Source: Adineta vaga (Eukaryota > Animalia > Rotifera). Taken from it: DNA of 64,000 nt. Below are positions 17,551 to 21,333 of the stretch, piece by piece. Under the pieces are notes generated by a model. The model worked only from the letters and a program-made list of their open reading frames with translations. It did not search any database and was not told the DNA's origin. The stretch lies in NCBI GenBank assembly GCA_021613535.1, contig CP075495.1, positions 2,418,001-2,482,000 of the forward strand, in the 5' to 3' direction. Positions within the stretch are counted from its first letter, which is position 1; every line of letters begins with the position of its first letter. Made by a program: the position numbers and the translations under genes.

Positions 17551-17996
17551 TGTTTTTTTACAATAAAAAAAAAGTCTTCTAGAATTCAGAGAGAGATATA
17601 CAAGAATATGACATTCATTTCATTTATTCAAAAGACATGCAGGATATTCTAATACAATCATACACATTTAAGAACACTTGTATATTTTGCTTCATAGAAA
17701 CTCTGAATAGTACTGATGTATATAATCATTCTCAACAAATTCTGAATATATATATATGATTTGCTAATGTTTTTTGTTTTCATACTTGTGATAGGAAAGA
17801 AAAAGCGATCTGGAAAATATCAAGATATTTTACTGTTGTTCGTATATCGGGATGGAATTTTTCACCCATATGTTTCTTTTTTTTATTTTGTTGTCTTTAA
17901 AAGATGTTATAAAAAAGACACATTTTCAGATGTTTCATACAAAACAAAGCGAAAAAAAAGTGAAGAATAATGGATATTCATTGAAATATGTTGTTT

Positions 17997-18577
17997 TTAT
18001 TCTTCATCTTCGTCTTCACGTTTCTTGAACATATATGTTACACAACATTTACCACAATAATTACGATCATGATGTGCAGCCATAAATACTCCGGCACCAC
18101 ATTGTTTCGATGGACATTCCCGACGTAAACGACGGATTTTGCCGGTATCTTCCACCTAAGAAAGATTTCATAGAAATTTTTCATTCATTTATATTATTAC
18201 TTTATAATATTTGAGAACAGCCAATTTGACTTTCTTGTGTTTATGTTTGTTTTTCTTTGGTGTATTATATGATTTCTTCTTTCGTTTCTTACCACCACCT
18301 TCAAGATCGAGTAAAACATAGAGTGTACTTTCCTCTTCAACACGACATTCAGTGAGTGTTAATTCATCATCTAATGTAATGCCACCTAATGTTAAACGTT
18401 GTTCATCAACAGGAATGCCTTTTGAAAACCAAACGAGAGATACATTCAATTTTAATGATTCATTTTTCATTTACCTTCACGTTGTTCAACAAGTTCTTTA
18501 ACATCATTGACTGTGTCATCAGATTGAACATCGAATGTCAATGTTCGATCATCCAGAGTACGCACAAAGATTTGCAT
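17997..18577 (-). CDS. RPS27A: Ubiquitin-like domain fused to 40S ribosomal protein eS31/S27a
   Basis: 3 exons. A 76-aa UBL ending LDLEGG is followed by [31 protein letters not shown] and the C4 zinc finger [26 protein letters not shown]. Confidence 0.95.
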
Positions 18578-20767: not shown

Positions 20768-20788
20768 ATTTTATAAATCGTATTTATT

Positions 20789-21333
20789 ATGTATAATATA
20801 CGTGTGGCTCTGATTGTTTTGTTTGCATTGACCTATCGAATCGATGCACACGGTCAACATGGTGCTGTTGGTAGTCAACCGCAAGGGGGACCTGGACAAC
20901 CACATGTTGCACGAAAAATGGAAGATTATGTGCATGATATGGAGTAAATAATTCATTTTTTTAGTCTTACAATATAATATATTATACATTTTTATTTAGT
21001 CATATTCGACATGATCTCGAAGGACAAATAAATAAACCGAAAGAACAAATGACACCAGAAGAGCAAAATTTCTATTATTTTAAATTACACGATACAAACA
21101 ATGATAATCGTTTAGATGGTTTAGAAATTGTTGCTGCTTTTGATCATGTACATCAAGAAGAAAATACTAATAATTCCACAACTGTTCAACCACCTACACC
21201 TCATGAACGACTTGCTGATGAAGAACTTATACGTCTTGTTGATGATATACTCAAAGAGGAAGATCGTGATCGTGATGGATATATCAGTTATGAAGAATTT
21301 AAAAGAGCTATTGAAGGCAATACTAATTCCTAA
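20789..21333 (+). CDS. MCFD2: MCFD2-like ER/ERGIC EF-hand protein
   Basis: Signal peptide MYNIRVALIVLFALTYRIDA, one intron (20944-20999), then MTPEEQNFYYFKLHDTNNDNRLDGLE and a second EF-hand DRDRDGYISYEEF. Confidence 0.9.

What the first reader, a model, noticed from the sequence alone, without database searches (positions are those of the whole stretch)
18293..18577. RPS27A leader has stopped being ubiquitin: an acidic, lysine-stripped UBL ending LDLEGG
Seen: the spliced leader domain is exactly 76 aa ([76 protein letters not shown]). By hand alignment only 35/76 positions match ubiquitin. Six of the seven lysines are lost (K6R, K11R, K29L, K33R, K48I, K63E; only the buried K27 is kept). The I44 patch is altered (I44T, H68Y, V70L), and R72/R74 have become D/E while the GG is intact. 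Known: in most eukaryotes eS31 is fused to near-invariant ubiquitin, and R72/R74 are key determinants for UBA1 and most DUBs. Divergent leaders are known for FUBI-eS30 and nematode UBL-1-eS31. Inference: this is an independently derived FUBI-like module that cannot build chains. It would need a dedicated or respecified protease and may act as an acidic cis-chaperone for the very basic eS31 N-terminus, or as a new modifier.
Basis: partly seen in the sequence, partly recalled or inferred. Interest (0 to 1): 0.75.

Follow-up and report, generated by a model that had tools for sequence, protein, structure and literature searches.

The report
Acidic ubiquitin stand-in on rotifer eS31
Bdelloid rotifers make ribosomal protein eS31 behind a strongly acidic, less-than-half-identical relative of ubiquitin instead of ubiquitin itself; it likely serves as a cut-off folding aid rather than a signalling tag, and it is a further animal case of a change already known from nematodes and many protists.

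Summary
The three-exon RPS27A gene (- strand, 18577-17997) encodes a 76-aa leader that is 35/76 identical to ubiquitin, has net charge -14, keeps only K27 and ends LDLEGG. Both introns are skipped in contigs of guessed-RNA runs from three studies. A second copy in the same organism has the same kind of leader. All 31 distinct leaders picked by their bdelloid-type eS31 tail (Adineta, Rotaria, Didymodactylos) end LDLEGG, and no canonical version was found. The leader is under purifying selection (omega about 0.2). A close orthologue is predicted to fold as ubiquitin. Molluscs keep canonical ubiquitin, so the state is not spiralian-wide. It is not FUBI: four of six defining features tested fail. 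Divergent eS31 leaders are known (Caenorhabditis, apicomplexans, Giardia), and the others I collected are acidic and lysine-poor too; dinoflagellate-type ones even end LDLEGG. I found no bdelloid report in print. Best reading: an in-cis chaperone that escaped concerted evolution and is likely cut after G76 by a tolerant or co-adapted protease. Cleavage, the protease and the monogonont state were not tested. New member of a known kind; moderate-to-low interest.

The parts
18475..18577 (-). Exon 1 (coding part): leader residues 1-34 and first base of G35
   Evidence: splice joint
18419..18474 (-). Intron 1, 56 nt, GT-AG, phase 1 in codon G35; same position as in canonical-ubiquitin animal RPS27A loci L012 and L016
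18294..18418 (-). Exon 2, leader part: residues 35-76, ending LDLEGG (predicted cleavage after G76)
18201..18293 (-). Exon 2, eS31 part: residues 77-107, the lysine-rich N-terminal extension (net +14 over the first 30 residues)
   Evidence: NLS role in yeast from PMC11274626 passages
18156..18200 (-). Intron 2, 45 nt, GT-AG, phase 0 after K107; shared with L012 and L016
17997..18155 (-). Exon 3: eS31 zinc-finger domain (K113 present, four Cys), acidic end, stop codon
   Evidence: Pfam PF01599 on orthologue P0008
17828..17996 (-). Approximate 3' UTR, ending at poly(A) sites
   Evidence: poly(T) loose ends at 17828, 17834 and 17839 in X1 and X7

Best explanation
This is the expressed, spliced RPS27A gene of a bdelloid rotifer, whose ubiquitin leader has become an acidic, nearly lysine-free ubiquitin-like domain that likely acts in cis as a folding and solubility aid for the basic eS31 and is likely cut off after G76 before the 40S subunit works. 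Shown here: gene structure, splicing, presence in both gene copies and in every bdelloid-type orthologue found, purifying selection, animal-type intron positions. Predicted: ubiquitin fold. Inferred, in order: (1) in a bdelloid ancestor the leader stopped being homogenised with polyubiquitin, so free ubiquitin would come from the polyubiquitin and eL40 genes (not checked here). (2) R72 and R74 became D and E first; Didymodactylos, sister to the rest in the tail tree, still has I44 and K48. This would shut the domain out of UBA1 activation and of most DUBs. The I44 patch and the lysines then decayed. (3) Net charge fell to -12 to -16, which roughly cancels the +14 N-terminal extension of eS31 and would limit aggregation or premature RNA binding. 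(4) The kept L8/I36/R42/L71/L73/G75/G76 surface would let a USP-type protease with a tolerant or re-tuned tail pocket release eS31, as USP36/USP16 do for FUBI-eS30. The freed leader would then be degraded rather than conjugated.
For: Splicing and a second copy with the same tail; no contig leaves the stretch at the leader/eS31 junction. The tail-only search ranks 12 bdelloid-type proteins first; their leaders, seen, all end LDLEGG. 35 of 36 stored proteins with a bdelloid-type tail have LDLEGG (the other is the window's own exon-3 fragment), and 0 of 253 canonical-leader eS31 proteins have that tail. Leader omega median 0.21 (0.11-0.34) against 0.10 for eS31, over the 25 of 28 pairs with leader dS above 0.1. 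The AlphaFold model of orthologue P0008 (71/76 identical to the window leader) has pLDDT 90-95 over residues 1-70; Foldseek's top 50 hits are ubiquitin chains, several at rmsd 0.7-1.0. D72, E74, G75 and G76 are invariant in 31 of 31 distinct tail-selected leaders, while other acidic sites swap D and E. 10 of 13 ubiquitin residues taken as USP contacts (11 named in PMC10611586, plus the diGly) are invariant, against 27 of 62 others, p = 0.036. All 21 non-bdelloid divergent eS31 leaders are acidic (-3 to -11), against -0.8 on average for 596 control UBL domains. In yeast, the ubiquitin of Ubi3 acts as a cis-chaperone and uncleaved Ubi3 impairs initiation (PMC8122580 section 3, first part; PMC11274626 passages). 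In USP36, R72 and R74 are met by glutamates, and restoring R74 in Fubi opens it to USP42 (PMC10611586, two sections).
Against: No direct evidence of cleavage or of chaperone action. D72 and E74 would face the glutamates that bind R72 and R74 in human USP36, so an unmodified USP should cut poorly. The excess invariance of contact residues drops to p = 0.10 without the diGly; the higher figure (11 of 13, p = 0.012) was inflated by a filter that used leader motifs. Codons 64-76 also show little synonymous change among 8 DNA copies, so invariance there may partly reflect short branches or codon constraint. An uncleaved leader exists in Giardia (PMC11354881 and PMC8122580 passages), and PDB chain 5xxu_f has a similar acidic leader ending GA, not GG. 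No whole genome was held, so a canonical copy under 80% DNA identity, or one absorbed in a 90% cluster of canonical proteins, is not strictly excluded. Monogononts and acanthocephalans were not found in any result.
Confidence: 0.6

Rival explanations
1. Giardia-like permanent domain: the acidic tail makes the junction uncleavable, and the leader stays on eS31 at the 40S beak.
For: Both arginines that USPs read are reversed in charge (PMC10611586). Giardia keeps its leader on the ribosome (PMC11354881 and PMC8122580 passages). Uncleaved yeast Ubi3 can still assemble (PMC11274626 passages).
Against: Giardia's block is ascribed to G75A (PMC11354881 passage), whereas G75-G76, L71 and L73 are invariant in 31 of 31 bdelloid leaders. 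Uncleaved Ubi3 harms initiation in yeast.
Confidence: 0.2
2. The released leader is a new conjugatable modifier with its own or a re-specified E1.
For: A diGly end and a fixed, derived surface: 13 invariant positions differ from ubiquitin. C. elegans UBL-1 was reported to be conjugated in reticulocyte lysate (Jones and Candido 1993; recalled, not read).
Against: R72 is a key UBA1 determinant (recalled). No free-standing or polymeric copy of the leader among the 54 hits of the leader-only search (only proteins of 86-277 aa were candidates, so this is weak). The same acidic, lysine-poor drift recurs in unrelated lineages, which fits loss of signalling better.
Confidence: 0.07
3. The leader is not a drifted ubiquitin but was taken over from the FUBI-eS30 gene (domain swap or gene conversion), together with its protease.
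For: Identity to FUBI of loci L022/L024 (36) equals identity to ubiquitin (35). The shared-derived fraction of 0.32-0.35 exceeds most controls (8 and 16 of 596 reach it). A bdelloid+FUBI clade is not rejected in the leader tree, p-AU 0.48.
Against: No 2-residue deletion in the L8 loop, R42 rather than V, no Pro at 49, no RxLGG (FUBI hallmarks from PMC10611586). It has the G35 intron of canonical RPS27A, which the FUBI exon of L022/L025 lacks. Those FUBI loci were retrieved through leader similarity, which inflates the sharing.
Confidence: 0.07
4. Horizontal acquisition of the gene or leader from an alveolate, which would explain the shared LDLEGG end.
For: Dinoflagellate-type leaders P0040 and P0049 (Symbiodinium) end LDLEGG and share 9-14 derived residues. 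Bdelloid+dinoflagellate clades are not rejected (tail p-AU 0.14; leader p-AU 0.09).
Against: The eS31 tail is 57-60/74 identical to most animal tails (53 for Toxocara) and 49-50/74 to dinoflagellate-type tails. Both introns match the crustacean-type loci L012 and L016. [quoted passage not shown]
Confidence: 0.04
5. A neutrally decaying or silent paralogue beside a canonical copy.
For: The leader evolves about twice as fast as eS31.
Against: Spliced at high contig depth; omega well below 1, with Fisher p < 0.04 in all 7 window-versus-locus pairs; no canonical copy seen.
Confidence: 0.02

Closest known systems
Caenorhabditis UBL-1-eS31 (ubl-1; PDB 9bh5_Af 'Ubiquitin-like protein 1-ribosomal protein eS31 fusion protein')
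   Same: An animal RPS27A whose leader left ubiquitin (PMC10457151 introduction; PDB listing).
   Different: Independent origin: the nematodes Toxocara and Prionchulus and all molluscs checked have canonical leaders. UBL-1 is shorter (eS31 starts about 6 residues earlier). Its cleavage and conjugation in lysates is recalled, not read.
Apicomplexan and other protist divergent UbS27a (Plasmodium; PDB 5xxu_f, Toxoplasma by recall; Catic and Ploegh 2005 as cited in PMC10457151)
   Same: 76-aa leader and G35 intron; 24/76 identity to ubiquitin in P. falciparum. 5xxu_f keeps only K27 and has net charge -12 by hand count.
   Different: 5xxu_f ends LELLGA. Plasmodium leaders differ among species by up to 28 residues, bdelloid leaders from the window by up to 20. 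Protist lineage.
Giardia GlUb-S27a
   Same: Divergent sequence with a ubiquitin fold and a proposed chaperone-only role (Catic et al. 2007 as cited in PMC10457151; paper not held).
   Different: Not cleaved, G75A (PMC11354881 passage); the bdelloid diGly is invariant.
FUBI-eS30 (FAU), processed by USP36/USP16
   Same: An acidic, lysine-poor UBL leader of a basic 40S protein, with R74 replaced, a changed I44 patch and Cys at the Y59 position; proposed cis-chaperone (PMC8354635 passages, PMC10611586).
   Different: Fused to eS30, 74 aa, RxLGG, V40 and P47; the bdelloid leader has none of these.
Canonical Ub-eS31 (RPS27A/UBI3)
   Same: Gene, introns, length, fold, GG junction and eS31 (K113 kept).
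   Different: 41 of 76 leader residues differ; the signalling surfaces are lost.

Membership tests
RPS27A / eS31 fusion gene | N-terminal ubiquitin-family domain fused to the Ribosomal_S27 zinc finger | tested here: met
   PF00240 (73.8 bits) and PF01599 (82.9 bits) above cut-off on orthologue P0008; window protein
RPS27A / eS31 fusion gene | Orthology with animal RPS27A (introns, tail) | tested here: met
   Both introns match L012 and L016; tail 57-60/74 identical to most animal tails
Canonical ubiquitin | Near-invariant sequence, LRLRGG end, seven lysines, L8/I44/V70 patch | tested here: not met
   35/76, LDLEGG, one Lys, I44T and V70L
Canonical ubiquitin | Beta-grasp fold | tested here: met
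   Predicted for orthologue P0008: pLDDT 90-95, Foldseek top hits are ubiquitin chains
Canonical ubiquitin | Activation by UBA1 and conjugation | not testable with these tools
   Needs a thioester assay; R72D argues against it (recalled knowledge)
Divergent UbS27a leaders (UBL-1 / Giardia / apicomplexan class) | eS31 leader strongly diverged from ubiquitin while eS31 stays conserved | tested here: met
   Leader 35/76 against tail 59/74 identical to the same vertebrate-type protein P0068; omega 0.21 against 0.10
Divergent UbS27a leaders (UBL-1 / Giardia / apicomplexan class) | It is the organism's working RPS27A, with no canonical copy | tested here: met
   Two copies, both divergent and spliced; no loose end at the junction down to 80% likeness; 0 of 253 canonical leaders on a bdelloid-type tail. 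No whole genome was held
Divergent UbS27a leaders (UBL-1 / Giardia / apicomplexan class) | Polyubiquitin or UbL40 of the same organism stay canonical | not tested
   No genome held; not searched for in the runs
FUBI | Fused to eS30 | tested here: not met
   Fused to eS31
FUBI | 74 aa with a 2-residue deletion in the L8 loop | tested here: not met
   76 aa, no deletion
FUBI | C-terminal RxLGG | tested here: not met
   DLEGG in 31 of 31
FUBI | V40 and P47 (ubiquitin positions 42 and 49) | tested here: not met
   R42 invariant; position 49 is S, T or Q
FUBI | Conserved F4 patch | tested here: met
   F4 in the window; not fully invariant in the tail-selected set
FUBI | Loss of chain lysines and of R74 | tested here: met
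   One Lys, E74
FUBI | Cleavage by USP36/USP16 | not testable with these tools
   Bdelloid USP sequences were not retrieved; needs an assay

The most novel reading that the evidence does not exclude
Bdelloids run an orthogonal leader-protease pair. The fixed D72/E74 tail locks eS31 away from general deubiquitinases, and a co-adapted USP with a charge-reversed tail pocket releases it at a set step of 40S assembly. This would be a second, independently evolved FUBI/USP36-type gate, and dinoflagellates would have reached the identical LDLEGG end by convergence (R72D and R74E occur in 2% and 7% of control UBL domains).
Probability: 0.3. Interest if true: 0.65.

Novelty: new member of a known kind. 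Interest (0 to 1): 0.38.

Why it matters
Why ubiquitin is fused to eS31 at all is an open question: to supply ubiquitin, or to chaperone the ribosomal protein. Lineages whose leader has left ubiquitin separate the two roles. Bdelloids add a culturable animal case with a tightly conserved leader, and the side results suggest that such leaders drift in one direction, towards acidic and lysine-poor, as a chaperone role for a basic client predicts. If the LDLEGG junction is cut, the enzyme must read a charge-reversed tail, which no DUB that I saw described does. The phenomenon itself has been known since 1993-2007, so a specialist would find it a useful new case, not a surprise.

Tried and rejected
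No whole genome is held, so the direct search for a second RPS27A was replaced by read laying and protein searches. The search of 50% representatives with full-length P0008 was swamped by polyubiquitin-like repeats; its hits served only as control UBL domains. These controls are not independent (596 domains from 85 proteins) and were chosen by similarity to P0008. Brachionus, acanthocephalan and Seison orthologues appeared in none of the three homologue searches or three cluster look-ups; PMC3701536 gives only a BLAST label. Two PDB searches meant to show the C. elegans UBL-1 alignment did not rank it in the top five, so its sequence was not compared. Trees on 76-80 columns resolve little: the bdelloid clade is supported (97/93 tail, 90/94 leader), deeper nodes are open, and AU tests reject neither FUBI nor dinoflagellate grouping (L017 and L021 left out of the tail tree, L020, L023, L029 and L034 out of the leader tree). 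The leader-versus-eS31 complex prediction never ran because the queue was full, so there is no verdict on direct binding. The VIA wide fold search was busy and Foldseek was used instead. The count '26 of 26 divergent leaders end GG' is set by my splitting rule and is not evidence. The invariance count used a leader-motif filter and was redone by tail alone. Second-copy differences were decoded from 16 of the 17 exon-2 rows (18337 left out, as it lies on the window-type copy): leader 5 synonymous and 4 non-synonymous codons (T49S, E63D, E64K, Y68H), eS31 7 and 0. E64K and Y68H come from adjacent double mismatches and were not verified. The index of earlier findings held nothing on this gene.

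Full report
Observation. The gene lies on the - strand: exons 18577-18475, 18418-18201 and 18155-17997, with GT-AG introns of 56 and 45 nt and a 159-aa product. The leader has one Lys (K27) and net charge -14; the first 30 residues of eS31 carry +14. The window holds no second copy (tblastn). Contigs of X1, X3 and X7 (three studies, RNA by the tool's guess) skip both introns at canonical ends. X19 runs through them, and poly(T) loose ends mark the 3' end near 17828-17839. X11 and X20 skip intron 1 too.

Organism and spread. The closest named proteins are from bdelloid rotifers: Adineta ricciae, A. steineri, Rotaria sordida, R. socialis, R. magnacalcarata, R. sp. Silwood1 and 2, and Didymodactylos carnosus. 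Rotaria gene models that fuse an acyltransferase to RPS27A map to the window's upstream gene (20343-18761), so the locus is syntenic. Selecting on the eS31 tail alone gave 44 sequences. 40 had an uninterrupted leader (4 dropped: the window's exon-3 fragment and three mis-called starts that still end LDLEGG), and 31 were distinct. All 31 end LDLEGG, have net charge -12 to -16 and are 34-38/76 identical to ubiquitin; 30 have one Lys. Many of these proteins came from leader-driven searches or 90% clusters, so the tail-only search is the cleanest check: its top 12 hits are all bdelloid-type with this leader, followed by a drop to other animals and Blastocystis.

Is there a canonical copy? The same organism has a second, diverged copy with its own introns and UTRs, probably the ohnologue (bdelloid tetraploidy is recalled). 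It is also spliced and keeps D72, E74 and GG. At 80% likeness no contig in four runs leaves the stretch at the leader/eS31 junction. None of 253 stored eS31 proteins with an RLRGG leader has a bdelloid-type tail. Without a whole genome this is strong but not complete.

Selection. NG86 on 8 spliced DNA copies (window plus 7 metagenome loci) gives a leader omega median of 0.21 (0.11-0.34) and an eS31 median of 0.10, over the 25 of 28 pairs with leader dS above 0.1. All 7 window pairs have Fisher p < 0.04. The pairs are not independent. The leader is constrained but more relaxed than eS31. An AlphaFold model of A. ricciae P0008 gives a beta-grasp domain at pLDDT 90-95 with a disordered basic linker, and Foldseek's top 50 matches are ubiquitin chains.

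Origin. Eleven mollusc proteins, two nematodes (Toxocara, Prionchulus), a cnidarian, an echinoderm, a hemichordate and a copepod have leaders 74-76/76 identical to ubiquitin (17 of 17 checked; names). The state is therefore not ancestral in Spiralia. Both introns sit where they do in the canonical crustacean-type loci L012 and L016, and the tail is closer to animals (57-60/74; Toxocara 53) than to dinoflagellate-type tails (49-50/74). Vertical descent with drift of the leader is the simplest reading. Trees on 76-80 columns support the bdelloid clade but reject neither a FUBI nor a dinoflagellate grouping. Didymodactylos branches first among the bdelloid tails and has D72/E74 but still I44, K48 and Q49, which suggests that the tail changed first. 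Monogononts and acanthocephalans were not recovered, so the change is dated only to before the split of the sampled bdelloids.

A recurrent endpoint. The 21 non-bdelloid divergent eS31 leaders I aligned are all acidic (-3 to -11) with at most 4 Lys, and 20 have lost R72 or R74 or both. They comprise three dinoflagellate-type, six from an unnamed animal-like lineage, eight protist-like loci, one brown-algal and three unplaced. The unnamed animal-like set came from the tail-only search, so it is not biased by leader similarity; the dinoflagellate-type and FUBI sequences were retrieved partly through the leader. 596 control UBL domains of like divergence average -0.8 and 6.9 Lys. Two dinoflagellate-type leaders end LDLEGG. 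PDB chain 5xxu_f (Toxoplasma by recall) keeps only K27, has net charge -12 by hand count and ends LELLGA. The bdelloid leader is thus the acidic extreme of a repeated trend.

Mechanism. In yeast the ubiquitin of Ubi3 raises eS31 yield in cis, Ub-free eS31 aggregates slightly, and uncleaved Ubi3 assembles poorly and harms initiation (PMC8122580 section 3, first part; PMC11274626 passages). A similar chaperone role is proposed for FUBI (PMC8354635 passages). USP36 reads the F4, I36 and I44 patches and meets R72/R74 with glutamates; FUBI's altered I44 patch and non-polar residue 74 keep other DUBs off (PMC10611586, two sections). In bdelloids L8, I36, R42, L70, L71, D72, L73, E74, G75 and G76 are invariant: 10 of 13 contact positions against 27 of 62 others, p = 0.036, or p = 0.10 without GG. 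This fits a surface still read by a protease but is weak, and codons 64-76 vary little even at silent sites in 8 DNA copies. I give 0.6 to an acidic cis-chaperone that is cut after G76, 0.2 to an uncleaved Giardia-like domain and 0.07 to a new modifier.

What is known. PMC10457151 (parts 1-4 of 5 read: main text and start of the references) states that UbS27a ubiquitin is highly divergent in Caenorhabditis, in 12 other species including 9 protists, and in all mammalian Plasmodium examined (24/76 in P. falciparum). PMC6332867 (passages) repeats this. PMC11354881 (passages) describes the uncleaved Giardia leader and mentions rotifers only for E1 and E3. Catic and Ploegh 2005, Catic et al. 2007 (not held) and Jones and Candido 1993 were not read, and the three non-protist species of the 2005 list are unknown to me. 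Searches for a bdelloid or rotifer report found none: bdelloid + ubiquitin + ribosomal protein S27a gave 0 papers; rotifer + RPS27A + ubiquitin gave 2 and Brachionus + ubiquitin + S27a gave 2, of which PMC11354881 and PMC3701536 were checked by passages and the flatfish paper PMC1933418 by listing only. Related searches were (listings). The library lacks most subscription papers, and no supplements were opened; those of PMC10457151 may list further divergent leaders.

Verdict. The feature is real and correctly described. It is a new animal member of the known class of divergent eS31 leaders, not FUBI and no longer ubiquitin. What lifts it above routine is the fixed charge-reversed tail before an intact diGly, its match in dinoflagellates, and the testable prediction of a co-adapted protease. 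Interest 0.38.

Noticed in passing
stored proteins P0134, P0137, P0142, P0171, P0184, P0187, P0189 and relatives (29 in all; JGI/ENA; clusters of P0142 and P0171 carry no names): An unnamed lineage with an animal-type eS31 tail (57-58/74 identical to the window) has its own divergent 73-75-aa leader: net -3 to -8, a 2-residue deletion in the L8 loop as in FUBI, and a variable end (PSLVGG, PTLPGG, PGLLGG). Possibly a third independent animal case.
   Followed up: partly
P0040, P0049, P0051: Dinoflagellate-type eS31 leaders end LDLEGG or LALEGG and share up to 14 derived residues with the bdelloid leader.
   Followed up: partly
L001:1103-1330 and L004:1929-2156: These bdelloid copies lack the G35 intron; their leaders are identical in DNA while their eS31 parts differ (tail dS 0.19), which may reflect recent conversion.
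   Followed up: no
P0397, P0399, P0400 (EukProt; members labelled Nemacystus, Cladosiphon, Gracilaria, Agarophyton): A half-diverged eS31 leader (49/76, 74 aa, 3 Lys) that still ends LRLRGG: a possible intermediate stage.
   Followed up: no
window 20343-18761, - strand: Multi-exon phospholipid/glycerol acyltransferase gene directly upstream; several Rotaria gene models wrongly fuse it, or Sm F, with RPS27A.
   Followed up: partly
window 20777-21333, + strand: Exons of a small protein with EF-hand-like motifs that resembles MCFD2 (resemblance recalled, not tested; ORF list).
   Followed up: no
window 18337: A T>C difference lies on the window-type copy in X19 and in some contigs of X1, X7 and X20; as listed it falls on the second position of leader codon 62. 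Not verified.
   Followed up: no
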